Source: Phycisphaerales bacterium
GTDB lineage: Bacteria; Planctomycetota; Phycisphaerae; Phycisphaerales; Phycisphaeraceae
Reading direction: 5' to 3'
Assembly: GCA_041402025.1 (NCBI GenBank)
Contig: JAWKTA010000009.1
Coordinates: 32,574-96,573, forward strand
Length of the DNA stretch: 64,000 nucleotides
In this document: piece by piece, positions 23,662 through 35,539 of the stretch
How positions within the stretch are numbered: position 1 is the stretch's first letter
Layout: each line of letters starts with the position of its first letter
Made by a program: the position numbers and the translations under genes
The notes under the pieces: model-generated
What the model was told of the DNA's origin: nothing
What the model saw: only the letters and a program-made list of their open reading frames with translations
Database searches by the model: none

Positions 23662-25152
23662 TCAACACCTTCGGCTTTGCACGAAGAACGCGCACAACAG
23701 GCCGAGCGCCCCCGCTGAGACCGGTTCGGGTAAAGAAGCCGTACCGGTGGGGGGGCTGCCGGTATTCCAGGCGGAGAGGATGAATGTCAGGTCTTCGATA
23801 CCGACGAACCCGTCGCCGTCCACGTCACCGAGCAGCAGGTCACCCGGGGTGACTGCCAAGTTCCAGTGGCTGAAGATGATGTTCAGGTCGCTGACACCGA
23901 CGAAACCGTCACCATTGAGATCGCCAGGTATCGACACGGCGAGGTTAAATAGATACGCGCTGCCGGCATCGACGCCCTGCGCCGTGTTCTGCCCGTGCGC
24001 GCCGACGGCGACGGTCTGGCCGTAGATCGTCACCGCGCCGCCGAAGTAGTCGATCGCCTGTGAGCCGTCGGCGGTGAGTTTGGCGACTTCCTGGCCGGTG
24101 GCGAGGTTGAACACATAGGCCGCGCCGGCGAGGCTGTCGGAATCCGCGCTGCCGAGTGTCGCACCGACGATCACGGCCCCCTGCCCGATGGCGACGGATG
24201 TGCCGAAACGGTCTCCGACCGTGCCGTCCGACGCGGTTAGTTTGAATAGCTCTTCACCCGTGGTCAGGTCGAACACGTACGCCGCACCGGGGCCGGTCTG
24301 CGCATCACCCGTTGGCGCACCGACGACCGCGAACGTGTCCGTAACCGCGACCGACCAGCCGAAGTGTGCGCCGGCGGCCGCGTCCGACGCGGTGAGCTTG
24401 CGTGTCTGTGTGCCGGTGTATGCGTCGAAGATATAGGCCGCGCCCGCGCCGTCGGCCGATCCGCTATCCCTATAAGCGCCGATCAGGGCGGTATTGTTGT
24501 CGATCGCCACCGATGCCCCGAACGCCGCGCCCGCCGAAGCATCCGAAGCCGTGAGTTTTAACCACTGTTCACCGGTGGTTGGATCGAACACATACGCGGA
24601 CCCGGCATCGACGCCCGCCGCCGTGTTGTCGGCCGGCGCGCCGATGACGGCGACAACCGGGCCGATCGCGACCGATGTGCCGAACCCGTCGAGCGCTTCA
24701 GAATCGTTCGGCGAAAGCTTGAACATCTCGTTGCCGGTGTTTACATCATATAGATAGGCCGCCCCGGCCAGTGTGCTGTGGTCACTGCCGCCGAAGGTTG
24801 CACCGATCAGGGCCGTGTTGTGGCTGACCGCGACCGATGCGCCGAACCCGTCGCCCGCGGTGGTGTCGGATGCGGCGAGCGTGAATAACGGTGCGCCGGA
24901 GAGCGTGTCGTAGAGGTAGGCCGCACCGGGGCCGGGGTTAATGCCCCGCGTCGGCGCACCAACGAGCGCCATCTGGTCACCCAGCGCGACCGACCAGCCG
25001 AAGCCGTCACCCGCCTGCGCATCCCACGCCGTGAGCCGTGCTGTCTGCTGACCGGCTCCAGCGGGCGTGACAGCCACGCCCGACAGAATCAGCGGAACGA
25101 TCCAACATTTTCCCCACCCGGTTAAGCGAGGTAGACGCATCATGGGTCCCAA
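23662..25152 (-). CDS. secreted FG-GAP-like beta-propeller protein with two dockerin-like repeats and a PEP-CTERM tail
   Basis: About eight repeats of the form ASD..AGD.FG.SVA....ALIGA......GAAY.FD..TG. The C-terminus reads GDLNGDGFVGVSDLNIIFSHWN...GDVDGDGFVGIEDLTFILSAWNTG...LPEPVSAGALGLLCAFFVQSRRC. Confidence 0.8.
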   Translation of the reverse strand: MGPMMRLPRLTGWGKCWIVPLILSGVAVTPAGAGQQTARLTAWDAQAGDGFGWSVALGDQMALVGAPTRGINPGPGAAYLYDTLSGAPLFTLAASDTTAGDGFGASVAVSHNTALIGATFGGSDHSTLAGAAYLYDVNTGNEMFKLSPNDSEALDGFGTSVAIGPVVAVIGAPADNTAAGVDAGSAYVFDPTTGEQWLKLTASDASAGAAFGASVAIDNNTALIGAYRDSGSADGAGAAYIFDAYTGTQTRKLTASDAAAGAHFGWSVAVTDTFAVVGAPTGDAQTGPGAAYVFDLTTGEELFKLTASDGTVGDRFGTSVAIGQGAVIVGATLGSADSDSLAGAAYVFNLATGQEVAKLTADGSQAIDYFGGAVTIYGQTVAVGAHGQNTAQGVDAGSAYLFNLAVSIPGDLNGDGFVGVSDLNIIFSHWNLAVTPGDLLLGDVDGDGFVGIEDLTFILSAWNTGSPPTGTASLPEPVSAGALGLLCAFFVQSRRC

Positions 25153-25299: not shown

Positions 25300-26334
25300 T
25301 TAATGGATGCCTTGCTCGGCGAGCCAGCGTTCGGCGTCGATCGCGGCCTTGCAGCCCATGCCCGCGGCGGTGATCGCCTGGCGGTACACATGGTCCGCAA
25401 CGTCGCCGGCGACGAACACGCCCTCGATGTCGGTCGTCGAGCGGTACGGGTCTTTGAGCTTGATGTAACCGGTCTCGTCCGTGGGGAGCTGGCCATTCAG
25501 AAACGCGGTGATAGGTGTGTGCCCGATCGCCATGAACAGCCCGCCGATCGCAAGCTCGCGCTGCTCGCCGTTCTGCGTATCTTCGAGCTTCACGCCCGTG
25601 ACGACCTTGTCGCCGAGCACGTCCACGACCTTTGTGTTCCAGAGGATCTCGATCTTGGGGTTGTTCATCGCGCGTTCCTGCATCACCTTGCTGGCGCGCA
25701 GCTCGTCGCGACGGACGATCATATAAACCCTGGACGCGAACTTGGTCAGGTAGCTCGCCTCTTCCACAGCGGTGTCGCCCCCGCCGACCACAGCCATCAC
25801 GGCCCCGCGGAACATCGGCAACGCGCCGTCGCACACCGCGCACGCGCTCACGCCGCCGCCGGACTGCGCAAGACGCATCTCGTTCTCAAGCCCGAGCCAG
25901 TTCGCCTTCGCACCGGTAGCAATGATGACGGCGTGGGATTTCACCTCGATCCCGTTATCGCCGACCACGGTGAAAGGCCTTTTGGAAAGATCGACGCTCT
26001 TGACGTTCTGAAAAGGCGTGTAGAGCGGCGCATCCTGGTTGACCTGCCCGCTGTCCTGGATGCCCTCATCCGTGACGACGCGGGTGCCGAAGCGCATCGC
26101 CTGCTTGGCGAACTCCTGCATCATGTCCGGGCCTTCGATGCCCTTAGGGAATCCGGGGTAATTCTCGACATCGGTGGTAAGCATCAGCTGCCCGCCGGGC
26201 AGGAGGTCCTTGCCCGTAGCCCGGCCGGGGAAGACCAGGGGGCTAAGGCTGGCGCGTGCGGCGTAGATCGCGGCGGTCCAGCCCGCGGGCCCGGAGCCGA
26301 TGATCGTGACTTTTTCGATGTTGTTTTCACTCAT
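25300..26334 (-). CDS. trxB: thioredoxin-disulfide reductase
   Basis: The start is placed at the ATG giving MSENNIEKVTIIGSGPAGWTAAIYAAR. Redox motif CAVCDG; NADPH site VVGGGDTAVEEA. Confidence 0.9.
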   Translation of the reverse strand: MSENNIEKVTIIGSGPAGWTAAIYAARASLSPLVFPGRATGKDLLPGGQLMLTTDVENYPGFPKGIEGPDMMQEFAKQAMRFGTRVVTDEGIQDSGQVNQDAPLYTPFQNVKSVDLSKRPFTVVGDNGIEVKSHAVIIATGAKANWLGLENEMRLAQSGGGVSACAVCDGALPMFRGAVMAVVGGGDTAVEEASYLTKFASRVYMIVRRDELRASKVMQERAMNNPKIEILWNTKVVDVLGDKVVTGVKLEDTQNGEQRELAIGGLFMAIGHTPITAFLNGQLPTDETGYIKLKDPYRSTTDIEGVFVAGDVADHVYRQAITAAGMGCKAAIDAERWLAEQGIH

Positions 26335-26360
26335 AGCGGGGGATTGTAGCAGGATCAATT

Positions 26361-26386
26361 CGCTCGTCGACACGGTGTGACGAGCG
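26361..26386 (-). other. 8-bp stem hairpin in the trxB leader
   Basis: cgctcgtc(26361-26368), loop gacacggtgt, gacgagcg(26379-26386). Confidence 0.4.
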
Positions 26387-26390
26387 TATT

Positions 26391-26483
26391 AGCCACCGAT
26401 AAACACAGATAAACACGGATGTATTCCATTTGACGCACACACCCCCATTCCCCACCGGTGTTCATCCGTGTTCATCGGTGGCT
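26391..26483 (-). repeat. 93-nt imperfect inverted repeat (31-nt arms, each with an internal 10-nt duplication) between the alaS fragment and trxB
   Basis: Left arm agccaccgataaacacagataaacacggatg (26391-26421); right arm caccggtgttcatccgtgttcatcggtggct (26453-26483). 26 of 31 positions are Watson-Crick. Three of the five mismatches are A/C on the plus strand and become G-U pairs in a minus-strand RNA. Confidence 0.6.
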
Positions 26484-26488
26484 GATGC

Positions 26489-27553
26489 TTATTTCAGAGC
26501 TTGATCCGCGAACGCCTTCGCCGCCTCGAGCGCGTCGGGGAGTTTGGCCGGGTCTTTGCCGCCGGCCTGGGCGCTGTCGGGTCGGCCGCCGCCGCCGCCG
26601 CCCACGACCGGGGCGACGTGCTTGATCCAGTCGCCGGCCTTGAGGCCCTTGTCGATGTTCGCTTTGGTCGCCGTCGCCATCAGCGCGACTTTGCCGTCCG
26701 CCTCGGCGGCGAGGAAGATCGCGGACTCGGGGTGTTTTTTGCGCACGACGTCCATCGCGGTGCGCAGCGTCTTGCCGTCCGCCCCCGGGACCAGCGACAC
26801 GATGACCGGGCCTGTCATGGCCTCGGCGATCGCGCGGGCGGATTCGACCACGGCCTCCTCGGCCTGGCCGCCCTGCTCCTTCTGGAACTGCTTGACCTTT
26901 TGCGATAACGCCGTCATCAACTCACGCAAACGACCACGCGCGACGACCGGCAACTGCGCCGCGTCCGCCGCCTTGGTGATCGCCTCGATCTGCTCGGCCA
27001 GCGTGTCCGCCGGGGCGCTCAATAGCGACTCGGCACGGTGCACCAGCCGGTCGCCCTCGGCGGTCGCCTTGTGCGCTTCGCTGCCGGTCAACGCGGTGAT
27101 ACGCCGCACGCCCTTGCTCACCGCGTCCTGGCTGACGATGCAGAATCCCTCGGCGTCGCCGGTTTTGGCAAGGTGCGTGCCGCCGCAGAACTCGATGCTG
27201 TACCCGGCCCACTCCTTGTTGTTCGGCTTGGCGATCAGGTCTTTCACGGGCACGCCGATCGACACGACGCGCACGACCGGCGGGTACTTCTCGCCGAACA
27301 CGGCACGCAGGCCGTTGATCTTCAGCGCCTTGTCCTGCGGGACGTGCTCGATATACACCGGCAGATCGCGGGTGATGTCATCGTTGACCTGCTGCTCGAC
27401 CTTGGCGAGTTCCTCCTCGGTCAGCGCCGCCTTGTGCGAGAAGTCGAAGCGTAGCTTCTGGTCATCGACGAGCGAACCCTTCTGCATCGCTTCGGGGTTG
27501 ACCAGGTCGCGTAGCGCACGGTTCATCACGTGCGTGGTCGTGTGGTTGCTCAT
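26489..27553 (-). CDS. alaS: alanyl-tRNA synthetase 3' fragment (editing domain plus C-Ala/DHHA1-like domain); no aminoacylation domain
   Basis: AVDRARRAKIMSNHTTTHVMNRALRDL (HxxxH), QKGSLVDDQKLRFDFSH, AVFGEKYPPVVRVVSIG, SIEFCGGTH, and a C-terminal GGGGGGRPDSAQAGGKD. AlaRS-like residues extend upstream of the ATG to about 27589. The frame stays open into the preceding gene. Confidence 0.8.
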   Translation of the reverse strand: MSNHTTTHVMNRALRDLVNPEAMQKGSLVDDQKLRFDFSHKAALTEEELAKVEQQVNDDITRDLPVYIEHVPQDKALKINGLRAVFGEKYPPVVRVVSIGVPVKDLIAKPNNKEWAGYSIEFCGGTHLAKTGDAEGFCIVSQDAVSKGVRRITALTGSEAHKATAEGDRLVHRAESLLSAPADTLAEQIEAITKAADAAQLPVVARGRLRELMTALSQKVKQFQKEQGGQAEEAVVESARAIAEAMTGPVIVSLVPGADGKTLRTAMDVVRKKHPESAIFLAAEADGKVALMATATKANIDKGLKAGDWIKHVAPVVGGGGGGRPDSAQAGGKDPAKLPDALEAAKAFADQALK

Positions 27554-27592
27554 GATCTTGGCACGACGTGCGCGATCGACTGCGAGCGCCCG

Positions 27593-28612
27593 TGAACAGC
27601 AACGCGCTCGCGGGTTCGGGTGTAGTTGTCCCGACCGGGGCGTACCCGTGTTCCAGTGGCTGAGGTTCAGGTTCAGGTCTTCGATGCCGATGAACCCGTC
27701 GCCGTTGCCGTCACCTTTAAGCAGCGAACCCTCCGGGACGGTCTTGTTCCAGTTGCTCAGCACGATGTTCAGGTCTGCGATGCCGACGAAGCCGTCGAGG
27801 TTGTAGTCTCCGTCGAGCGCGAGCACCTGCAGATAATCGACCTCCGGCGCGAGGAACGAGCCGAAAGGGAAAGCGCCGTCGCTGACCGAACGGAGCCGGA
27901 CGTAGGCGATGGTTTTCAGGAACACAGGATCGCCGTTGCCGTCGATCGCGTCGTCGAGGTTGAACCCGTCGCCGCCTGGCGTGACGTCGAAGTAGCCCGG
28001 CAGATTCGTGTCGTCATCGAACGGCGCCGAGTAATTCAGGCTGAAGTCGGGGTTGCTGGTGATGTTGATCGGGTTGTTCGCGTTGCGCGGGTCGTTGATG
28101 AGATCGAAGTTGCCGGGCTTGATGAGGTAGAAGGTTTCGTCCTGCCAGCCGCCGGGCTTCGCGCCGCCTCCGTCGGATTCGACGGCCACCTCGATGAACC
28201 CGGGTTCATAGAACGTGAACGCGGACGGCGCGTTACCCACCACGAGCAGATCGTCGCCTTCGATGTTGGGTAGCTCCACCTTGAACCCGACGACCAGCCC
28301 TGGCGTCAGCGTGTTCGTGCCCGTCGCCGGGTCATCGGACCAGCCGCCCAGGGAAACGGTTTCGGTCAGCGTGCCCTGTGACAAGGCGACCTGCTCGCCC
28401 GGCCCACCCAACGCGGCCAGTGCGTTGTCGTACAACTCCAGCGGGTCGGAGCCATACACATAATCCACGTTTTGTCCGGGCTCGAAATAGCCCGGCACGT
28501 CCGCGTAACGTGCGCCGAGTGCCGGCGCGCCGAGTACCGACACACTCACGCCCACTGCGCCGAAAACCCCGAACGCCTTCCATGGCCTTCCCAATACACG
28601 TCCTGCAAACAT
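27593..28612 (-). CDS. secreted protein of unknown fold with two dockerin-like repeats; it has no stop codon of its own, and its PEP-CTERM motif is out of frame
   Basis: ATG at 28612, 5 nt after GAGGAG. Signal peptide MFAGRVLGRPWKAFGVFGAVGVSVSVLGAPALG. C-terminal DGDYNLDGFVGIADLNIVLSNWN...GDGNGDGFIGIEDLNLNLSHWNTGTP. A TPEPASALLFTGA motif is readable only in another frame (PEP codons at 27612-27620). Confidence 0.7.
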
Positions 28613-28759
28613 CGTTTCTCCTCGCCCTGTTTCGCGCAGGGCAACCCCTCGACTGACAAAAAGAATGTCCGTCCTCACGATGTCTGCTGGGGCGTATGCG
28701 GGGCCGACGAGGGGGCGACGGCGACGCGGATCCTGCCCGAGCGTCCCGTTCGCGAGGAC

Positions 28760-29015
28760 ACAGTCGGCACCCTTTCAGGCAGGTCTTCCGGCTCAGGGTT
28801 CTCGTTCCGCCGGCCTTCCCAACAGGCCCGTTGCAGGCCCATCAGTGGCGTGTCGGCGGGACGCCGGCCCGACCTATTCTGGTCAGGCCACCCATTACGG
28901 CGGCGCGTCCGCGGGGGAATTTCAGGGCCAGGCCCGATAAAAGCCTCGCCCCAAGCACCCCACTTCCCTTTTCACGCGGCCCCGACGGCTTAGCCCGTCA
29001 GAACCACGCACCCGT
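28760..29015 (-). promoter_or_regulatory. cobalamin (B12) riboswitch aptamer
   Basis: The minus-strand RNA has, in canonical order, GAAAAGGGAAGUGGGGUG...GAAAUUCCCCC...CCGUAAUGGG, GCCACUG (28849-28843), GGGAAGGC (28820-28813) and the B12 box GAGCCGGAAGACCUGCC (box core 28793-28778). It lies 150-400 nt upstream of the ATG at 28612. Confidence 0.85.
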
Positions 29016-29050
29016 GGGTTCACCCCCGACGACTCGCCGAGGGTCTGTCG

Positions 29051-29079
29051 AAGTTACTACTAACCACACCCCATCGCAA
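29051..29079 (-). promoter_or_regulatory. putative promoter for the riboswitch leader (TTGCGA-17-TAACTT)
   Basis: On the minus strand, TTGCGA at 29079-29074, a 17-nt spacer, then TAACTT at 29056-29051. Motif match only. Confidence 0.3.
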
Positions 29080-29277: not shown

Positions 29278-29349
29278 GCGGGTGTAGCTCAGTGGTAGAG
29301 CGTCACGTTGCCAACGTGAATGTCGTGAGTTCGAATCTCATCACCCGCT
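29278..29349 (+). tRNA. tRNA-Gly (anticodon GCC); CCA not encoded
   Basis: Manual cloverleaf. Acceptor GCGGGTG/CACCCGC (7 bp), D arm GCTC-AGTGGTA-GAGC, anticodon arm TCACG-TTGCCAA-CGTGA, variable ATGTC, T arm GTGAG-TTCGAAT-CTCAT, discriminator T. Confidence 0.95.
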
Positions 29350-29356
29350 TTGATAA

Positions 29357-29396
29357 AGCCCTCCCGGCCACCAGGCTGCGGAGGGCTTGTTCTTTG
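29357..29396 (+). terminator. rho-independent terminator after tRNA-Gly
   Basis: Stem agccctcc(29357-29364)/ggagggct(29380-29387), followed by tgttcttt. Confidence 0.7.
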
Positions 29397-29547
29397 GGGT
29401 ATCACCACAGGCATTCACTTGGCTTGGGTCTAGTCGCCACGAACCACTAACTTGGTGAGTTTTTGATTGCTTTAGTCTTCATGAATTTTTCGACGGGTTT
29501 TTAAGCCGGTGAATAGGTACAGAATGTCTAATAAACAGCGCATGCAT

Positions 29548-29577
29548 AAAGCCAGCCTGTAAGGGCTGGCTTTATGA
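29548..29577. terminator. hairpin downstream of the minus-strand adhesin-like gene
   Basis: ataaagccagcc-tgtaag-ggctggctttat gives a 10-12 bp stem in AT-rich flanks, about 50 nt after the stop at 29626. Confidence 0.5.
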
Positions 29578-29625
29578 CGGGTCGGTAGGAACCTGGCCCG
29601 GTTATTGTTGGGTGTTAGGCTTCAG

Positions 29626-31720
29626 TTATTTGGTATCTCCTTTGAAATGATTCCTGCATTTGCGTTGAGTCAGCACAAGACCGCCGATAGTCAACAATGC
29701 GAGGCTGGCCGGTTCGGGGACAAATACCTGAATATCTGTGGGTGGCGACCCGGTATTCCAATTGCCCAGGACGACGTTCAGGTCATCGATACCGATGAAG
29801 CCATCGCCCGACGGATCGCCTTGGATCCATACACCGGCGTCGGCGTCTTGGTTCCAGTTGCCAAGAACAATATTCAGGTCCGAGATACCGACGAATCCGT
29901 CGCCGTCGAGGTCACCCAAAAGACCAGCTCTGAGCGTGACCGTGTTCGAACCGTAGATCAGTCCTAAGCCGATGTTTGTCAATGTAGGAAACAGCACGCT
30001 GTCAAAGTGGCCGTTCACTGAACTACTGGCATTGAGGAACACAAAGCTGTCACCGATGCTTGGCACAAAGCCGTTTAAAAGAGAGATGTCCAGCACGCCG
30101 CCGAGGTTGGCGACATTAGTACTCAGGTGATCGATCTGGGACGTGTGATCGCCGGCAATGTCAATCTTAAGCCTACCATTCACGCCCTGAGAATAAATGC
30201 TGGACACGCCGCCCACGGTTAGAGTCCCGGTAACTTCCTGTCCCAGCACGAGGGCATTAGGGGAGACCGTTCCGGCGACATTGTTCAAACCGGCAGTAAA
30301 AAGCCCCTGTCCCTTTACAAGGCCACCCGCGGCTACTTGTACATTATCACCTTGGATGGTTGATCCATAGAGAGAAGCACCGTTCAGATTCAACACTCCA
30401 CCATTCCCCAGCACCCAGCTCTGGGCGGATGATAAATCAATATTCAGCGTACCGGCCACGTCCATCTTTCCGTTGAATTGCGCGTCCTGAGTATCAAGGC
30501 TGCCTGTATAGATGGTCAGCTTCTTGCCACCGCCGACCACCACGGTGTTTTTGCTGGCAACGCCGTCGAGGTCCATAACGGTCTGCCGGATGGTCGTGTC
30601 GCCCTGCGCTGAGACCGTTACGCCCGATCCGGCAACCAAGCCGCCCGGGATATTGAGCGAGGCCAGATTTTCAATCGTGCTTAGGCCGCCGAAACGCAGG
30701 GTTGTGCCGTTGGCGACGTTGAGGGTGCCGGCGTTCATCTTGAATTCACAGTCGATGGAGCCGATCCCGGATTCGACGTTGATCGTGCCCGCCGCCATGC
30801 TCATCTTCCCGCCGTTAATGGTTGCGGCACCTGAGGGAGAGCCCATCAGGTGAGCTTGGCCGTCGAAGTCCCATGGCTGGACAAGTGTAACGGTGTCCTG
30901 GGCACCAACGTTCAACGTCCCGCTGAATGCGTCCGACATCAATGTATCGATTGTCAAGTGACCGATGCCACCGCTGCCAAGAATAGTACCACTTACCGCT
31001 TGAATTACACCCTGTTCTGTTGTGACCGTCCAGGTCTGATTTGGCCGGCCAGTTAACGCTGATTGTTAAATCACCTGAACCCAAAACCGGGGTTGAAATC
31101 GTCCCAACATTATCAAACACGGTGGTGTTCAGACTGCTTGATGATCCTATGATTAAGGTGCCTTTGCCCATTATGGTGCCAAGGTTTGCGAACTCAGATA
31201 GCGCGGTTACCTGCCCGCCGGCCAGCTCGAGAGTCCCGTTGTAGGCGGTTGAAATTGCGATCGATCGCACCGCGTCTTGGGGAACACTTCCTCCGCGGGG
31301 CGTGGCAATGAGCTTGGCGTTGCCCTGGATGTGAATTTCGCTATTGATACTGCCATGCACCGTGTCGGCTACGCGCAGCAGGTTGCCATTGGTGTTGAGT
31401 GTTGCGTTGTTGTCCAACCAGACGGTCGTTAAGCCAGGTGTGTTGGCGTTGAGCATAACCGGGTTGTTAGCTGTGCCGAGGATTCTTACATCGTCCTCAT
31501 ACGCCGGTACGGTGCCGCTGAGTGTCGTTGCATTCAGCCAGTTGGTTGCGGTATTCCAGTTATTGCTGGTCGAACCGTTCCAGATCACGGTATCGGCCTG
31601 TGCCAGGCCCGGGGCCAGGCAGGCGGTGAGCAGACACCCGGTACGCCCAAGTTTCGCGGGCAAGCGAAAGGCGACGGGGCTGGAGGTGGTCGGTCTTAGA
31701 CACGATTGGGGGGCGGGCAT
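29626..31720 (-). pseudogene. large secreted adhesin-like repeat protein with dockerin-like repeats and a PEP-CTERM tail, interrupted by one frameshift
   Basis: ATG at 31720, 9 nt after GGAG. Signal peptide ...LLTACLAPGLAQA. The Gly/Thr/Asn-rich beta-solenoid-like body is split between ORFs 30815..31789 and 29626..30957. The second frame is open from about 31065 (QSALTGRPNQTWTVTTEQGVIQAVSGTILGSGGIGHLTIDTL), so the shift lies near 31045-31065. C-terminus: GDLDGDGFVGISDLNIVLGNWN...GDPSGDGFIGIDDLNVVLGNWNTGSPP...VPEPASLALLTIGGLVLTQRKCR. Confidence 0.75.
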
Positions 31721-31842
31721 GTTGTAGTCTCCTAAAGGCGGAATTGCCTGGTAAGAGGACATACGGGAATGGGTCGCCCGCGCGGACATTGGGCTTAAAA
31801 AAACGTAAGCTGGAATACTTTATTGGGTCTTAAAAGCCTGAT

Positions 31843-32422
31843 ATGATTGCACTAATGGTTGGAAATGATTCCGAGGTTACATTGGTGCTTGACGCCATGG
31901 AGCGTGGCGATCCCTCTGCCGGATCTCGCCTATTTCCGCTGATTTATAACGAGCTGCGTCGTAGGGCTGGACAACTGATGGCACAACAAAGACGCGGACA
32001 TACGCCCAGCAACGGCACTGGTCCACGAGGCCTATCTCAAACTGGTCCGTCCGGGTATCAGCTACCAGAGCCGATTGCATTTTTATCACACCGCGGCGAT
32101 GGCGATGCGGCGTATCCTGATCGATCATGCTGAAGCCAGGATGACTCTTAAGCGTGGTGGGCAGCGACGTCGGGAAGGGCTATCAGCCGTGGACGCCGCC
32201 GCGCCGGGGTCCGACACCAGCCCCATCGACACCATTGCATTGAACGAAGCTTTGGAAGAATTGGCTGCCACGTGTCCAAGGCAGGCCGAGGTCGTGAACC
32301 TGAGGTTCTTTGCCGGTTTGAATGATGCCGACATCGCGGAAATGCTAGCTGTATCGGACAAGACCGTTCGGCGTGACTGGGCGTGTGCCCGTCTCTGGTT
32401 GTTTGATCGGATCAAGAACTGA
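31843..32422 (+). pseudogene. planctomycete-type ECF sigma factor (Sigma70_ECF family), frameshifted near 32003-32012
   Basis: ORF 31843..32133 gives DAMERGDPSAGSRLFPLIYNELRRRAGQLMAQQRRGHT. The expected continuation ATALVHEAYLKLVRPGISYQSRLHFYHTAAMAMRRILIDHAEA... is in the next frame (ORF 32075..32422). Region 4: VVNLRFFAGLNDADIAEMLAVSDKTVRRDWACARLWL. Confidence 0.8.
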
Positions 32423-32442
32423 TCGGGCCGGGACACCCTTTC

Positions 32443-35361
32443 ATGCCAAGCCCACCAAACGATCGCGTATTGGACATCCTGGGAGATGTGCTGGATGTAG
32501 GTTCTTCACGAAGGCCGGACCTTATCGCAAAGCTTTGTGGCGAGGATGCGGAGCTACGTCAAGAAGTCGAGCGACTTCTCAGTTTGGAAGGTTCCGCACG
32601 TGCTGCGATCCCGGACAGTCTTAATGCCAGCCAGCTATTAACCAACCTGCCTGACTTTGAGGTTACTTTGGGGTTCGGTGAGTCATCGGATGACAACCTG
32701 ATCGGTAAACGTATTGGCGCGTACACGATTGATGAATTCATAGGTCGTGGCGGAATGGGCGTTGTTTACCGTGGTGTGGATCATAGATTAAGCCGCCCCG
32801 TCGCCGTCAAAGTTTTGCCAGCGTCATTCGCATCCGACACAGTCCGTATGGCGCGGTTTTCCCGTGAGGCTCAGTTGCTGGCTTCTCTCTCTCATCCCAA
32901 TATTGCTTCGGTTTACGGGCTGGAGGAAGATGGGGTAGCTCAATACTTGGTCATGGAACTGATCGAGGGCCAGACATTGGCCGAGCGCCTTGCTCGCGAG
33001 AAGATGCAGATCGCAGATGTACTTCAGGTGGCTATCCAGATCGCCGAGGCGCTAAGTTGTGCACACGATGCCGGCGTCGTCCACCGCGACCTCAAGCCCG
33101 CCAACGTCATGCTGACACCTGACGATCGGGTGAAGGTGCTCGACTTTGGGCTGGCGCGATCAGTCCCAATCTCTACGATAGAAGAACGCACCTCGGCAGC
33201 CAGTCTCGACTCGTTGTTAGCCACCGCTCCCGGGAGTTTCATTGGTACACCGCGTTACATGAGCCCGGAACAAGTGCGTGGTCTGTCTGTTGACAAACGC
33301 ACGGATATTTTTGCTTTCGGCTGTGTTCTGTTTGAGATGCTAAGCGGTGTCCGGGCGTTTGACGGGAGTGACCGGACCGAGGTCGCCGCGGCCATACTTG
33401 AACGAGAGCCCGATTATAATTCGTTACCCATACATACCCCTCCTTTGCTGATCCGATTGATAAAGCGGATGCTGGAAAAAGCACCTTCTGAACGATTGCG
33501 TGACTCCGCAGACGCGATGTTTGATCTCAAGGAGATGCTTGTGGAACGGGCATGGCTTGTGGAGAACAAGGCCGCAGCCCGGGCTAGAGCTGTGAGCCAC
33601 CACTTTACTTCGACCATTGTAGTGGGCTTTGTATTGGGAATAGTTGGGGGTTTTGTCGGTTGGTACTGGGCTTCACAACAGACAGAGCCACCACCGGTCT
33701 TAGGTCATACGGATCATTTCAGTATTGACCTGCCCGGCAACGAACCGCAGAATGATCTTGCTCACCTCCGTGTTTCGATTTCGCGAGATGGGTCGCATAT
33801 AGCATTGTCGGCGAGTGACGGAAACCATCGGATGCTGTGGTGCCGTAGTCCTGAGGACACGGCATTTCAACCGATTGAGGACTCTGTGGGTGGTTGGATC
33901 CCGTCTTTTTCCCCTGACGGGCAGTGGCTTAGTTACCATCATGATGGCCGACTTCTCAAACGCCGGATTGCCGGCGGAAAGCCATCGGTGCTCACGGACT
34001 TAGCCGGCTATTGGGGGCGCTTTACTTGGGGCGATGACGAGAAGATTACATTCGTGCCTGTTTGGGGCAAAGGCGTAGCCAGGCTGCCGATCAACGGCGG
34101 GGAGCCGAAATTTGTTTCGCATTTAGACTTCGACAATAATGAATTCGCCCACCTTGCTCCGAGCGTTACGCCAGACAACCGTACGATCCTCTTTGCTGTA
34201 TGGGACGGCAAACACGGCACGCACATAGACGCAATGGATCTTGATGGGTCAAATCGTCACACGGTAATCGCAAACGGTCACAGCCCTCGCCCGGTAATGA
34301 CCCCGAAAGGTGCTTACGTGCTCTTTGCGCGTTCGGGAACGGTTTACGCGGTCGGGTTTGACCAGATTTCACAGGCGTGTATCGGCTCCGAGAAAGCTAT
34401 TGTCGACGGTGTTTTGTCTGACCGAGTATTTTTTTCGTCATGCTTTGATGTCGCCGATGATGGCACTCTGGTATATATCCCGGGTCCCGAGTTCACAGAA
34501 CAATCGGACTTGGCATGGCTGAATGACGACGGCACGCACTCGGCGATTGAGGCCCCATCCAATTCATACACCGAGCCACGCGTCTCTAAAGACGGAAATA
34601 CCATCTCGTTCTTAATTAAAGCGGAACAGTATTGGCCATGTATCTTTGATACAAACAAAAACACTTTTGACCGGGTCGTCACCGATGGCGACACCAGCAG
34701 CGGAGCTATATCGCCTGATGGGCGTTACTTGGCTTATTCAAACAACCGATCTGGTCCTTATTCGCTCTACATCCACGAGCTAGCCACCGGGGCCGACAAA
34801 CTCTTGGCAAAAGGCAGTAATGATTACCTCTGCCAAATCAGCTGGTCGGCCGATTCGCGTTACATCGCTTTTTCAATGTCACCCGATGATAAGAGCAAGC
34901 GAGATGTATGGGTCGTAGATGCGGAAGACGGTGAAATGAAGAATGTCTGCAACTCGCCGGCCGAAGAACGCACCCCCCGATTCTCGCCGGATGGCCGCTG
35001 GCTTGCTTATATCAGTAATGATACCGGAACACGCGAGGTTCGCGTCCGTAAGTTTCCCGAAGGTTCGCCAGACAGGCAACTCACTTCTGGTGGCGCGGAC
35101 TGGCCCGACTGGAGCTCTGATGGCAACACGCTTTATTATAGACAGGGCGGCAGGCTCTGGGGGATGCCTATGGAAAATGGTTCGGTCGCCGGCCAACCTA
35201 CGGTTGTATACGACCGGGACTTCGGTCAGTCTGACTTTGACATGCCCGATTACACAACCGCACCTGACGGCCGCATACTGATTGTCAGGCCCGCTAACGC
35301 TGGCCCATTAATAGATAGCTTGTGTGTAATCACTAACTGGCCGAACCTCATACAACCGTAG
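32443..35361 (+). CDS. Ser/Thr protein kinase with one TM and a C-terminal TolB-like (WD40-like) beta-propeller region
   Basis: GRGGMGVVYRG, VAVKVL, HRDLKPANVM, DFGLA and GTPRYMSPEQ. TM IVVGFVLGIVGGFVGWYW. Then repeated SPDG/SRDG/SKDG/SADS blade motifs (FSPDGQWLSY, SPDGRYLAYS, SPDGRWLAYIS and others). Confidence 0.9.
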   Translation: MPSPPNDRVLDILGDVLDVGSSRRPDLIAKLCGEDAELRQEVERLLSLEGSARAAIPDSLNASQLLTNLPDFEVTLGFGESSDDNLIGKRIGAYTIDEFIGRGGMGVVYRGVDHRLSRPVAVKVLPASFASDTVRMARFSREAQLLASLSHPNIASVYGLEEDGVAQYLVMELIEGQTLAERLAREKMQIADVLQVAIQIAEALSCAHDAGVVHRDLKPANVMLTPDDRVKVLDFGLARSVPISTIEERTSAASLDSLLATAPGSFIGTPRYMSPEQVRGLSVDKRTDIFAFGCVLFEMLSGVRAFDGSDRTEVAAAILEREPDYNSLPIHTPPLLIRLIKRMLEKAPSERLRDSADAMFDLKEMLVERAWLVENKAAARARAVSHHFTSTIVVGFVLGIVGGFVGWYWASQQTEPPPVLGHTDHFSIDLPGNEPQNDLAHLRVSISRDGSHIALSASDGNHRMLWCRSPEDTAFQPIEDSVGGWIPSFSPDGQWLSYHHDGRLLKRRIAGGKPSVLTDLAGYWGRFTWGDDEKITFVPVWGKGVARLPINGGEPKFVSHLDFDNNEFAHLAPSVTPDNRTILFAVWDGKHGTHIDAMDLDGSNRHTVIANGHSPRPVMTPKGAYVLFARSGTVYAVGFDQISQACIGSEKAIVDGVLSDRVFFSSCFDVADDGTLVYIPGPEFTEQSDLAWLNDDGTHSAIEAPSNSYTEPRVSKDGNTISFLIKAEQYWPCIFDTNKNTFDRVVTDGDTSSGAISPDGRYLAYSNNRSGPYSLYIHELATGADKLLAKGSNDYLCQISWSADSRYIAFSMSPDDKSKRDVWVVDAEDGEMKNVCNSPAEERTPRFSPDGRWLAYISNDTGTREVRVRKFPEGSPDRQLTSGGADWPDWSSDGNTLYYRQGGRLWGMPMENGSVAGQPTVVYDRDFGQSDFDMPDYTTAPDGRILIVRPANAGPLIDSLCVITNWPNLIQP

Positions 35362-35539
35362 ATTCTCAAGCGTTACTTGCCTGAAACGCAGCATCATTCT
35401 GCCCTTCGGGCCCCCTTTATGCTGATTATTTTCTGTGCGGTAAGGGTGTCATTGTTGCATCGGTTGCCGACTTGGCTGACTCATCGGCGTCCTGGGGGTG
35501 AACGACGAGCATCTCGGGAAGCGGCGAACCCGACAAAAT

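What the first reader, a model, noticed from the sequence alone, without database searches (positions are those of the whole stretch)
27593..29079. Cobalamin riboswitch controlling a secreted dockerin-repeat protein of unknown function (candidate corrinoid-capture surface protein)
**What the sequence shows.** The minus strand of 28760-29015 contains the diagnostic cobalamin-riboswitch elements in canonical order. They are AAGGGAA..GGUG...GAAAUUCC, CCGUAA, GCCACUG (28849-28843), GGGAAGGC (28820-28813) and the B12 box GAGCCGGAAGACCUGCC (core 28793-28778).

**Downstream gene.** The first start codon downstream is the ATG at 28612, preceded by GAGGAG. It opens a protein with a clear signal peptide, about 250 aa of sequence I cannot assign to any family, and two dockerin-like Ca-binding repeats.

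**Possible switch mechanism.** Just 3' of the aptamer, UCCUCGC (28758-28752) is complementary to the Shine-Dalgarno region GCGAGGA (28625-28619). The same segment can alternatively pair with UCGUGAGGAC (28680-28671), upstream of a U-run (28662-28658). Both an SD-sequestering and a terminator-type switch are therefore conceivable.

**Why it matters.** Known B12 riboswitch regulons are B12 transport (BtuB and accessory surface binders), cobalamin synthesis and B12-independent isozymes. None resembles this protein. A riboswitch-gated, cell-surface-anchored protein of unknown fold is therefore a candidate new corrinoid-binding or acquisition factor.
Basis: partly seen in the sequence, partly recalled or inferred. 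Interest (0 to 1): 0.8.

Follow-up and report, generated by a model that had tools for sequence, protein, structure and literature searches.

The report
Riboswitch-controlled BtuH-like vitamin B12 binder
A genuine vitamin B12 riboswitch controls a secreted protein that proves to be a distant relative of BtuH, the B12-capturing surface protein of gut Bacteroides, here in a planctomycete-type genome with a different cell-surface anchor and, in this copy, a damaged 3' end.

Summary
A cobalamin riboswitch (RF00174, 50.3 bits, E 1.4e-9) lies at 28776-29014 (-), directly upstream of a secreted protein with two dockerin-like repeats.

The candidate corrinoid-binder reading is strongly supported. In 27 of 28 evaluable homolog loci from Planctomycetota and Desulfobacterota, the same riboswitch class precedes the gene. 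These operons also hold DUF4465 (BtuJ-type) proteins and, in some loci, BtuB, BtuF or CobO.

The claim that the protein resembles nothing known is wrong. Its ~230-aa domain is a remote homolog of the BtuH B12-binding domain of Bacteroides. The evidence is a PDB profile search (E 1e-13 and 2e-6) and Foldseek, where BtuH chains are the only significant hits (TM 0.55-0.58). The BtuH metal/phosphate-site residues are also kept (N127, E136, D209 invariant in 61 sequences).

New relative to BtuH are the phyla, the PEP-CTERM anchor instead of a lipid anchor, and a prepilin-type (DUF1559-like) partner gene in 26 of 27 planctomycete loci.

The window's copy is atypical. It has a frameshift and a truncated PEP-CTERM. 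The partner gene is replaced by the 3' half of alaS, read in frame. Whether that is a real rearrangement or an assembly error is unresolved.

The parts
28776..29014 (-). Cobalamin riboswitch aptamer (RF00174)
   Evidence: 50.3 bits (gathering score 31.5), E 1.4e-9. Orthologous hits lie upstream of homologs in 27 genome loci.
28613..28775 (-). Expression platform (leader between aptamer and start codon). It contains segment A GUCCUCGCG (28759-28751), its local partner GGGACGC (28747-28741), segment B CGUGAGGAC (28679-28671), hairpin GCCCUG/CAGGGC (28642-28637 / 28629-28624) and SD GAGGAG (28623-28618).
   Evidence: 77% mean column identity over 9 relatives, with all of these segments invariant or nearly so. 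RNAalifold consensus with compensatory changes in the local hairpin and the SD-proximal hairpin.
28605..28687 (-). Long-range helix that pairs the start codon: GCAGACAUCGU (28687-28677) with ACGAUGUUUGC (28615-28605, includes AUG 28612-28610).
   Evidence: pairs at alignment columns 115-126/188-199, with compensatory changes at 117/197, 118/196 and 125/189. It is also present in the window's minimum-free-energy fold.
28511..28612 (-). Start codon and predicted Sec-type signal peptide (aa 1-34, ...GAPALGA|RYADV). It contains no cysteine, so it is not a lipoprotein signal.
   Evidence: Sequence. pLDDT is about 50 for residues 1-33 and high from residue 34 onward. Homologs vary here and become conserved from RYAD onward.
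27824..28510 (-). BtuH-like domain (aa 35-263), the conserved core of the family and the predicted corrinoid-binding domain.
   Evidence: No Pfam or NCBIfam hit. PDB profile hits 8blw_B E 1.1e-13 and 7biz_A E 2e-6. hhalign 94%. AF2 pLDDT 95.5, pTM 0.92. Foldseek TMq 0.55-0.58 with only BtuH chains significant. N127, E136 and D209 are invariant in 61 sequences.
27638..27814 (-). Two dockerin-like / EF-hand-like Ca-binding repeats (aa 267-325). They are optional in the family.
   Evidence: dockerin_GC E 0.009, below cut-off. (PDB dockerins, E 7e-4 to 4e-3). (Dockerin_1 in 12 and EF-hand_6 in 13 of 50 members). Distant members lack them.
27637..27640 (-). C4 run where a 1-nt shift separates the dockerin frame from the PEP-CTERM frame. 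One more C would restore NTGTPPVGTTTPEPA...
   Evidence: Three-frame translation compared with homolog C-termini.
27585..27620 (-). Truncated PEP-CTERM remnant (PEPASALLFTGA, frame +2). The breakpoint lies at about 27585-27593.
   Evidence: Homologs carry a full PEP-CTERM (PF07589 in 33 of 50 members). Similarity to relatives ends here.
26489..27589 (-). 3' half of an alanyl-tRNA synthetase gene (editing domain with HxxxH and CxxxH, plus C-Ala/DHHA1). It has no catalytic domain, is read in frame with the upstream ORF, and occupies the slot of the prepilin-like gene of relatives.
   Evidence: TIGR00344 positions 544-847, 241 bits against a 457 cut-off. (tRNA_SAD, DHHA1). (P0263, 97% identical). 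(93.5% DNA identity to L034 over window 27583-26458). (relatives have a prepilin-type gene here, Pfam N_methyl in L001 and L032/L033, then trxB).
26397..26477 (.). Palindromic element (GGATGAACAC-type arms) at the left junction, between the alaS stop and trxB.
   Evidence: Similar elements lie before trxB in L032 and after alaS in L034.
25300..26373 (-). Thioredoxin-disulfide reductase gene (context; synteny with relatives resumes here).
   Evidence: 80-84% DNA identity to relatives. (Pyr_redox_2 in L032).
29278..29349 (+). tRNA-Gly(GCC), divergent from the riboswitch (context; conserved synteny in close relatives).
   Evidence: A tRNA lies at the same relative position in L001-L003 and L005-L008.

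Best explanation
The locus is a cobalamin-riboswitch-controlled gene for a secreted corrinoid-capture protein. Its core domain is a distant homolog of the BtuH B12-binding domain of Bacteroides.

PROPOSED WORKING.
- When cobalamin is plentiful, it binds the aptamer. The conserved leader then adopts a fold that blocks translation initiation, with the AUG and/or the SD paired.
- When cobalamin is scarce, the protein is made and exported through Sec.
- In intact family members, the PEP-CTERM/exosortase route fixes it at the cell surface.
- There it binds corrinoids mainly through the nucleotide-loop phosphate, via a metal site (N127, E136, D209, E257), and through the corrin side chains.
- It then passes them to an uptake system. 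In Desulfobacterota the same operon encodes a BtuB-type TonB-dependent receptor. In Planctomycetota it encodes a prepilin-type (DUF1559-like) protein.

SHOWN: the riboswitch, its recurrent linkage to the family, homology in sequence and predicted fold to BtuH, conservation of the metal-site residues, and the operon content.

INFERRED: actual corrinoid binding, OFF-type logic, surface location, and hand-over to a transporter.

THE WINDOW'S COPY has lost its anchor and its partner gene to an alaS-fragment replacement. It may be released rather than anchored, or non-functional.
For: - RF00174 hit.
- 27 of 28 evaluable genome loci of homologs have RF00174 upstream on the same strand. These include distant members (35-45% identity) in other orders and in Desulfobacterota, with differing operon layouts.
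- Operon neighbours: DUF4465+PEP-CTERM proteins, TonB-dependent receptors with Plug domain, Peripla_BP_2, and CobA_CobO_BtuR. DUF4465 is the BtuJ fold, shown to bind B12 (PMC13398666).
- PDB profile search: 8blw_B (BtuG1 with a fused BtuH domain) E 1.1e-13; 7biz_A (BtuH2-B12) E 2e-6. Chain identities come from PMC10404256 and PMC8941943.
- hhalign against Bacteroidota BtuH fragments: 94.3%, E 9.5e-8.
- AF2 models: pLDDT 90.5 and 95.5.
- Foldseek against PDB: only the BtuH chains are significant (E 1.6e-7 to 6e-6, TMq 0.55-0.58, rmsd 4.0 A over 252 columns for 7BIZ). The next hit has E 0.18.
- Counterparts of BtuH2 Asn399, Glu406 and Asp522 are invariant in 61 sequences. Glu584 is E or D, and Ser582 is S, A or T.
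- The leader is conserved, and a helix with compensatory changes pairs the AUG.
Against: - No binding data exist for any member.
- Identity to BtuH is only about 15%.
- Counterparts of the corrin-contacting residues Tyr510, Trp511, His476 and Gln333 could not be assigned. Only Trp577 has an aromatic counterpart, and only in about three quarters of members.
- The Asp522 equivalence rests on transitivity through the BtuG1 H-domain alignment, because HMMER and hhalign place BtuH2 differently there.
- Two-state energy modelling of the leader did not identify a clear ON state.
- In the window the gene is frameshifted, lacks a complete PEP-CTERM and has lost the partner gene. Function in this genome is therefore doubtful.
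Confidence: 0.8

Rival explanations
1. The protein has the BtuH fold but does not capture cobalamin itself. It might bind another ligand (a corrinoid precursor or degradation product, or something unrelated), or act as a structural or adhesive surface protein that happens to be co-regulated with B12 uptake.
For: Most corrin-contact residues of BtuH2 cannot be matched. Identity is about 15%. BtuH's own role in the relay is listed as unknown in the 2026 review.
Against: The metal/phosphate-site residues that hold the nucleotide loop are invariant. Riboswitch linkage is near-universal. The gene shares operons with BtuJ-type binders, BtuB, BtuF and CobO.
Confidence: 0.1
2. In this genome the gene is a recent pseudogene. 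A real rearrangement replaced the end of the PEP-CTERM signal and the whole prepilin-like partner gene with a copy of the 3' half of alaS, and a 1-nt deletion shifted the frame. The riboswitch now drives a useless fusion.
For: - The replacement has two junctions (about 27590 and about 26485), with syntenic flanks on both sides. One chimeric join cannot produce that.
- The left junction lies at a palindromic element that is also found after alaS in L034 and before trxB in L032.
- The window holds no alaS N-terminal motif.
- The window is the only planctomycete locus examined in which another gene occupies the prepilin slot; of the 27 evaluable loci, only L017, whose contig ends within about 4 kb, shows none.
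Against: - The riboswitch, leader and BtuH-like domain are fully intact and keep every family-invariant residue. The alaS fragment has no stops over about 366 codons and keeps HxxxH and CxxxH. Any decay is therefore very recent.
- Neither the junction nor the fused ORF was found in any other assembly.
Confidence: 0.45
3. The 3' anomaly is an artefact: a mis-join at the palindromic repeat, a second error at about 27590, and a homopolymer error in the C-run. The real genome would then carry an intact PEP-CTERM protein followed by the prepilin-like gene, as in its relatives.
For: - The frameshift sits in a C4 homopolymer.
- The left junction is at a repeat shared with the native alaS context.
- The near-identical metagenome contig L034 starts within 14 nt of the window's right junction, which hints at an assembly-graph break there.
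- L034 shows alaS followed by an SDR gene, not trxB.
Against: Two independent mis-joins 1.1 kb apart would be needed, and one of them is not at a detectable repeat. GC content and coding signal are continuous across the region.
Confidence: 0.3
4. The riboswitch acts by premature transcription termination, with the GUCCUCGCG:CGUGAGGAC helix followed by the U-run, rather than by blocking translation.
For: The 9-10 bp complementarity exists and is conserved, with a G-U to G-C change in L009. A U5 run follows. The A:B helix is the minimum-free-energy state in five of nine relatives.
Against: - The helix encloses about 70 nt, and the U-run starts 8 nt after it.
- The consensus scan finds no terminator on this strand.
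- The U-run is absent in L009 and interrupted in L006 and L007.
- In the consensus fold the U-run forms the loop of a small hairpin.
- The AUG-pairing helix shows compensatory changes.
Confidence: 0.15

Closest known systems
BtuH (BtuH1 BT1488, BtuH2 BT1956, and the H-domain of BtuG1/BtuGH BT1490) of Bacteroides thetaiotaomicron; PDB 7BIZ and 8BLW chain B
   Same: - Homologous globular domain by profile, hhalign and predicted fold.
- Conserved counterparts of the Na/Ca-phosphate site residues.
- Secreted and probably surface-located.
- Encoded in B12-riboswitch-controlled loci alongside other B12-uptake genes.
- Modular: the domain occurs alone or joined to other modules.
   Different: - About 15% identity, and not detected by Pfam or NCBIfam.
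- Found in Planctomycetota and Desulfobacterota, whereas the literature places BtuH predominantly in Bacteroidota plus three Firmicutes.
- No lipoprotein signal. The anchor is a C-terminal PEP-CTERM instead.
- The domain is N-terminal here, not C-terminal after PKD domains or a beta-propeller.
- An optional dockerin-like pair is present.
- The planctomycete operon partner is a prepilin-type protein rather than BtuB/BtuG.
- Most corrin-contact residues are not recognisably conserved.
BtuJ / DUF4465 (PF14717) B12-binding beta-jellyroll proteins
   Same: Co-encoded in the same riboswitch-controlled operons, also with PEP-CTERM tails. Same presumed role of extracellular corrinoid capture. Already known to occur in Planctomycetota.
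   Different: Not homologous. hhalign matches only the PEP-CTERM tail, and there is no PF14717 hit.
Cobalamin riboswitch (Rfam RF00174), translational OFF switches
   Same: Aptamer above the gathering score, with a B12 box. It lies upstream of B12-acquisition genes. Conserved SD- and AUG-pairing elements lie downstream.
   Different: The expression platform is long (about 165 nt) with several competing helices, and the switching logic is unresolved. The window's hit covers model positions 17-174 only.
PEP-CTERM / exosortase-sorted surface proteins
   Same: Family members end in PEP, a hydrophobic helix and a basic cluster (PF07589 in 33 of 50 members). Other PEP-CTERM proteins are encoded nearby in the window.
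   Different: In the window the signal is out of frame and cut after 9 hydrophobic residues.
DUF1559 (PF07596) prepilin-type proteins of Planctomycetota
   Same: The conserved downstream partner carries the N-terminal methylation motif. In L013 it has a strong DUF1559 match, E 2.7e-53.
   Different: No function is known for DUF1559, and I found no published functional link to B12: only one paper in the library holds both terms, once each, and I did not read it. This partner gene is missing from the window.

Membership tests
Cobalamin riboswitch (RF00174) | Covariance-model score above Rfam's gathering threshold | tested here: met
   50.3 bits against 31.5, E 1.4e-9. Orthologs score 43-103 bits.
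Cobalamin riboswitch (RF00174) | B12 box and conserved core motifs in canonical order | tested here: met
   alignment and sequence: GCCACUG, GGGAAGGC and AGCCGGAAGACCUGCC at the stated positions.
Cobalamin riboswitch (RF00174) | Ligand-dependent control of the downstream gene | not testable with these tools
   There is only indirect support: conserved leader helices that pair the AUG and SD. Energy modelling was ambiguous.
BtuH-type B12-binding domain | Sequence homology to the BtuH globular domain | tested here: met
   Family profile against PDB: 8blw_B E 1.1e-13 (two stretches) and 7biz_A E 2e-6. hhalign against Bacteroidota BtuH fragments: 94.3%, E 9.5e-8.
BtuH-type B12-binding domain | Same fold (described as having no other structural homologs) | tested here: met
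   AF2 pLDDT 95.5, pTM 0.92. Foldseek: 7biz_A/B TMq 0.55, rmsd 4.0-4.1 A; 8blw_B TMq 0.58. These are the only hits with E <= 1e-3, and the next has E 0.18. This compares a predicted structure, not a solved one.
BtuH-type B12-binding domain | Conserved metal/phosphate site (BtuH2 Asn399, Glu406, Asp522, Ser582, Glu584) | tested here: met
   N127 61/61, E136 61/61, D209 61/61; position 257 is E in 43 and D in 18; position 255 is S in 29, A in 23 and T in 8. The Asp522 equivalence is by transitivity through the BtuG1 H-domain alignment.
BtuH-type B12-binding domain | Corrin-contact residues (Tyr510, Trp511, His476, Trp577, Gln333) | tested here: inconclusive
   Only Trp577 has an aromatic counterpart (F 36, Y 6, W 4 of 61). 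The others fall in regions that do not align reliably.
BtuH-type B12-binding domain | Direct high-affinity binding of B12 | not testable with these tools
   This needs recombinant protein and SPR, ITC or spectroscopy.
BtuH-type B12-binding domain | Encoded in a B12-riboswitch-regulated locus with B12 transport genes | tested here: met
   27 of 28 evaluable loci. Neighbours include DUF4465, a TonB-dependent receptor, Peripla_BP_2 and CobO.
BtuH-type B12-binding domain | Surface lipoprotein (lipobox signal), as in all described BtuH proteins | tested here: not met
   The signal region has no cysteine. The family ends in PEP-CTERM instead.
DUF4465 / BtuJ | Match to PF14717 or profile similarity to DUF4465 proteins | tested here: not met
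   No PF14717 hit. hhalign aligns only the PEP-CTERM tail.
PEP-CTERM sorted protein | C-terminal PEP motif, transmembrane helix and basic cluster, in frame | tested here: not met
   In the window, the PEP motif plus 9 hydrophobic residues lie in frame +2 and are then interrupted by alaS sequence. The feature is met in homologs.
Dockerin type I | Pair of Ca-binding repeats matching PF00404 above threshold | tested here: inconclusive
   The window protein has no PF00404 hit at E <= 0.01 and scores 16.4 bits on NCBIfam dockerin_GC against a cut-off of 29. 12 of 50 members hit Dockerin_1. The profile hits PDB dockerins at E 7e-4.
Alanyl-tRNA synthetase / AlaX | Full-length AlaRS with catalytic domain, or an AlaX equivalog score | tested here: not met
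   Only TIGR00344 positions 544-847 are present (241 bits against 457). AlaXM scores 57 bits against 300. The window has no FTNAGM-type N-terminal motif.

The most novel reading that the evidence does not exclude
Planctomycetota may acquire vitamin B12 through a riboswitch-controlled module that has not been described. PEP-CTERM-anchored BtuH-like and BtuJ-like binders would capture corrinoids at the surface and hand them to a prepilin-type DUF1559 protein (a pseudopilus-like device). That protein occupies the operon position held by the TonB-dependent receptor BtuB in Desulfobacterota. If true, this would give the first functional assignment to a member of the very large and enigmatic DUF1559 family, and it would be a new route for vitamin import across a Gram-negative-type envelope.
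Probability: 0.25. Interest if true: 0.8.

Novelty: new variant of a known kind. Interest (0 to 1): 0.55.

Why it matters
BtuH has been treated as a speciality of gut Bacteroidota: a lipoprotein with a fold that has no other structural homologs.

This locus shows that the same B12-binding domain, under the same riboswitch control, exists in environmental Planctomycetota and Desulfobacterota. There it has a different anchoring system (PEP-CTERM/exosortase) and sits next to BtuJ-type binders. That suggests a multi-protein extracellular B12 relay is an old and widespread strategy rather than a gut adaptation.

Three practical gains follow:
- A name and a testable function for a family that databases list only as hypothetical or as a PEP-CTERM protein.
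- An invariant residue set (N127, E136, D209, E/D257) for mutagenesis.
- A tight genomic link between B12 limitation and a DUF1559 prepilin-type protein, a family with no known function. This link is directly testable.

For this particular window the interest is lower, because the copy is damaged or mis-assembled at its 3' end.

Tried and rejected
- DUF4465 relationship: rejected. hhalign matched only the PEP-CTERM tail.
- Retrieving full-length BtuH with an 86-aa BtuH2 fragment: this returned only fragments of 150 aa or less. They served for hhalign over the C-terminal half only.
- Exhaustive profile search: my error. The profile still held the dockerin and PEP-CTERM columns, so most of the top 150 hits are unrelated dockerin/PEP-CTERM proteins. 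The totals (14,652 / 1,591 / 27) do not measure this family. Only about 20 representatives match the N-terminal domain.
- Looking for the fused ORF in public assemblies under two start codons: not on record. A third look-up was not sent because the service was busy.
- Exact 30-mer across the right junction in metagenome contigs: no match, which is uninformative.
- Longer family members P0122 and P0125, and the other unassigned PEP-CTERM operon proteins: no Pfam family beyond the PEP-CTERM motif (plus one sub-threshold beta-propeller-repeat hit in L015) and, for the two searched against the PDB (L015, L030), no sequence match.
- Two-state energy modelling of the leader: either state can be the minimum-free-energy fold, depending on the relative, and the SD or AUG is paired in both. 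No ON state was identified.
- Carbohydrate-binding or cellulosome reading based on the dockerin repeats: rejected. The dockerin pair is optional in the family, jellyroll, CBM and lyase folds score only E >= 0.06, and the riboswitch linkage is B12-specific.
- AlaX trans-editing protein reading of the downstream fragment: rejected. The fragment is far closer to bona fide alaS, and it is 93.5% identical in DNA to a native alaS 3' end that sits in another genomic context.
Full report
OBSERVATION. A scan of the whole 64-kb window against Rfam gives two hits above threshold. One is a tRNA at 29278-29349 (+). The other is a cobalamin riboswitch aptamer at 28776-29014 (-), scoring 50.3 bits against a gathering score of 31.5, with E 1.4e-9. 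These include the B12 box, GCCACUG, GGGAAGGC, the UCCUCGC / UCGUGAGGAC / GCGAGGA segments and the U-run. The ATG at 28612 follows GAGGAG. The product starts with a hydrophobic signal-like segment that contains no cysteine. About 230 residues follow with no match in Pfam or NCBIfam, then two dockerin-like repeats. The ORF does not end near 27593. It runs on in frame for another 366 codons to 26489, and that part is the C-terminal half of an alanyl-tRNA synthetase (TIGR00344 positions 544-847, with tRNA_SAD and DHHA1 domains).

THE PROTEIN BELONGS TO A RECURRENT FAMILY. A search with residues 1-268 found 52 cluster representatives (90% identity clusters). Most are about 350 aa, none has a Pfam domain in the conserved part, and the few that are named are called hypothetical or PEP-CTERM proteins. 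The alignment shows a signal peptide, a conserved domain of about 230 aa, an optional dockerin-like pair and a C-terminal PEP-CTERM sorting signal. The distant members have only the domain and PEP-CTERM. No Pfam model hits the domain in any of 50 members.

THE DECISIVE TEST: RIBOSWITCH LINKAGE. A scan of one genome per species returned 31 loci encoding relatives. They come from Phycisphaeraceae and other Phycisphaerae (Sedimentisphaerales, Tepidisphaerales), from Planctomycetia (Thermoguttaceae, Pirellulales, Planctomycetaceae), and from Desulfobacterota, including the cultured Desulfosarcina variabilis. Rfam scans found RF00174 upstream on the same strand in 27 of them. Three of the four negatives have the gene at a contig edge with too little upstream DNA (L004, L017, L022). 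The fourth, L016, has a c-di-GMP-I riboswitch instead. In 17 loci the family gene is the first gene after the riboswitch. In 10 loci one or more other PEP-CTERM genes come first. From general knowledge, a genome holds a handful of cobalamin riboswitches. I estimate the chance of finding one within 2 kb upstream of an arbitrary gene at well below 1%; I did not compute this. Eleven loci are close, syntenic relatives and so are not independent. The remaining loci, at 35-45% identity and with different operon layouts, show that the linkage is maintained by selection.

OPERON CONTENT. The intervening or following genes include:
- DUF4465+PEP-CTERM proteins in many loci;
- TonB-dependent receptors with Plug domains in L021 and L023;
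- a BtuF-type Peripla_BP_2 protein in L012;
- a CobA/CobO/BtuR adenosyltransferase in L013;
- several further PEP-CTERM proteins with no family assignment.
DUF4465 is the beta-jellyroll fold of BtuJ1/BtuJ2, shown to bind B12 in divergent members (PMC13398666; bioRxiv 10.1101/2025.07.01.662609). The family studied here is not DUF4465. hhalign between the two aligns only the PEP-CTERM tail.

WHAT THE DOMAIN IS. A profile of the family searched against all PDB sequences hit two entries outside the dockerin region. They are 8blw_B (E 1.1e-13; query 79-152 and 201-261 against chain 438-509 and 598-661) and 7biz_A (E 2e-6). 7BIZ is BtuH2 of Bacteroides thetaiotaomicron bound to B12. Its C-terminal globular domain binds the vitamin and was reported to have no known structural homologs (PMC8941943). 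8BLW chain B is BtuG1, whose extra ~250 residues are a fused BtuH domain (PMC10404256). hhalign of the trimmed family domain against Bacteroidota BtuH C-terminal fragments gave 94.3% probability, E 9.5e-8. AlphaFold2 models are confident: pLDDT 90.5 and pTM 0.85 with the signal peptide, 95.5 and 0.92 for the domain alone. Foldseek against the PDB returns only the BtuH chains as significant. 8blw_B has E 1.6e-7 and TMq 0.58. 7biz_A/B have E about 5e-6, TMq 0.55 and rmsd 4.0-4.1 A over 252 columns. The next hit has E 0.18. The domain is therefore a remote homolog of the BtuH B12-binding domain, at about 15% identity.

BINDING-SITE CONSERVATION. In BtuH2 the nucleotide-loop phosphate is held through a Na/Ca site formed by Asn399, Glu406, Asp522, Ser582 and Glu584. 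Corrin amides contact Tyr510, Trp511, His476 and Trp577. The PDB chain index equals the residue number minus 100, as shown by the motifs. The mapping onto window numbering is:
- GNAF (Asn399) aligns with the family's G126-N127.
- SEPG (Glu406) aligns with E136-P137.
- GYADN of the BtuG1 H-domain aligns with G206-Y207-x-D209. It corresponds to GYVDN with Asp522 in BtuH2.
- STEV (Ser582, Glu584) aligns with A/S255-x-E257.
In 61 family sequences N127, E136 and D209 are invariant. Position 257 is always E or D, and position 255 is S, A or T. The Trp577 counterpart is aromatic in 46 of 61. The other corrin contacts could not be placed. The phosphate/metal site is thus conserved, and the rest of the pocket is undetermined.

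EXPRESSION PLATFORM. RNAalifold predicts three elements:
- a local hairpin, 28761-28755 with 28747-28741, showing a G-C to A-U exchange;
- a hairpin just upstream of the SD, 28642-28637 with 28629-28624;
- a long-range helix pairing 28687-28677 with 28615-28605, which includes the AUG, with compensatory changes at three positions.
The same helix appears in the window's own minimum-free-energy fold. Segment A (28759-28751) can pair with segment B (28679-28671), which overlaps the 5' strand of the AUG helix, so the two pairings exclude each other. No terminator-like site is found on this strand. The U-run begins 8 nt after the A:B helix and is missing in L009. Forcing the A:B helix and comparing energies gave no clear ON state. 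The A:B state is the minimum in five relatives and 2.7-11.7 kcal/mol above it in four, and the SD or AUG tends to be paired in both states. I conclude that control is at translation initiation (inferred, moderately supported) and that the exact logic is unresolved.

THE 3' ANOMALY. In close relatives the order is tRNA (divergent), riboswitch, family gene, a prepilin-type gene of about 285 aa (Pfam N_methyl where scanned, in L001 and L032/L033), and thioredoxin reductase. The window matches these relatives from 29023 to about 27585 and again from 26355 (trxB). The 1.1 kb in between is the alaS fragment.
- In frame +2 the window reads PVGTTTPEPASALLFTGA, a PEP-CTERM signal cut after nine hydrophobic residues. 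One extra C in the C4 run at 27637-27640 would join it in frame to the dockerin repeats.
- The alaS fragment is 97% identical in protein and 93.5% in DNA to the 3' end of alaS on a 1.7-kb metagenome contig, L034. There it is followed by a short-chain dehydrogenase gene, not trxB. That contig starts 14 nt upstream of the point where similarity to the window begins.
- A palindromic element follows the alaS stop in L034. A similar element precedes trxB in the window (26397-26477) and in L032. The left junction therefore lies at a shared repeat.
- Because there are two junctions with syntenic flanks, a single chimeric join cannot explain the arrangement.
I favour a real replacement (0.45) over a double assembly error plus a homopolymer error (0.3), but I could not decide between them. 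Neither the fused ORF nor the junction was found elsewhere.

A PATTERN BEYOND THE WINDOW. A prepilin-type gene follows the family gene on the same strand in 26 of 27 evaluable Planctomycetota loci, usually directly adjacent. It follows in none of the four Desulfobacterota loci, two of which have a TonB-dependent receptor there. In L013 the partner is a clear DUF1559 protein (E 2.7e-53). A full-text search found no functional link between DUF1559 and B12: one paper holds both terms, once each, and I did not read it. I found no paper describing BtuH homologs in Planctomycetota. The 2026 review places BtuH predominantly in Bacteroidota plus three Firmicutes.

VERDICT. The element is a real cobalamin riboswitch that controls a secreted BtuH-like protein. 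The family is very probably a corrinoid-capture component (0.8). It is a new variant of a known kind: same domain and same regulation, but new phyla, a new anchor, new partners, and no recognition by current family libraries. The window's own copy is damaged or mis-assembled at its 3' end. Interest is moderate.

Noticed in passing
L020:5282-5850 and L020:7812-8239; L016:4881-4960: A Desulfatiglandales MAG has tandem riboswitches of two different classes, twice in one locus. Cobalamin followed by c-di-GMP-I precedes the BtuH-like and DUF4465 genes, and the same pair precedes an unassigned 363-aa ORF. A Desulfobacterium MAG has only c-di-GMP-I upstream of its homolog. This suggests two-input control of these surface proteins.
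   Followed up: no
L001-L032, gene immediately downstream of the family gene (e.g. L013:6774-7634, L001:2462-3328): A prepilin-type (N_methyl, DUF1559-like) gene follows the BtuH-like gene in 26 of 27 evaluable Planctomycetota loci and in 0 of 4 Desulfobacterota loci, where a TonB-dependent receptor can take that position. The window lacks this gene.
   Followed up: partly
window 29350-35500: GC content falls from about 0.65 to about 0.53 directly after tRNA-Gly(GCC) at 29278-29349. The low-GC stretch holds PEP-CTERM/dockerin-like proteins (29626-30957, 30815-31789), a sigma-factor-like ORF (32075-32422) and a 972-aa kinase-like protein (32443-35361). It may be a tRNA-associated genomic island.
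   Followed up: no
L024:4809-5861, L030:994-2031, L025:4573-5739, L027:600-1490, L027:1581-2267, L015:6751-7839, L026:7873-9213: The same cobalamin-riboswitch operons hold further PEP-CTERM proteins with no family assignment. L026:7873-9213 has a riboswitch of its own at 7709-8004. Pfam finds only the PEP-CTERM motif, plus one sub-threshold beta-propeller-repeat hit in L015; the two searched against the PDB (L015, L030) have no sequence match. They are candidate additional corrinoid-relay components.
   Followed up: partly
window 26397-26477; L032 about 2540-2660; L034 about 1120-1215: A palindromic element with GGATGAACAC-type arms occurs once in the window, before trxB. Similar elements lie before trxB in L032 and after alaS in L034. 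It may be a dispersed repeat that mediates recombination or mis-assembly.
   Followed up: partly
window 23662-25152 (-): A 496-aa protein with seven FG-GAP repeats (E 1e-90), a dockerin type I domain and, by eye, a PEP-CTERM-like tail (Pfam reports no PEP-CTERM hit for it) lies two genes downstream. Dockerin plus a PEP-CTERM-type tail appears to be a common surface-protein design in this genome.
   Followed up: no
P0122 (656 aa), P0125 (558 aa): Two family members carry the BtuH-like domain at the N-terminus of much longer proteins, and the remainder of each has no Pfam match.
   Followed up: partly
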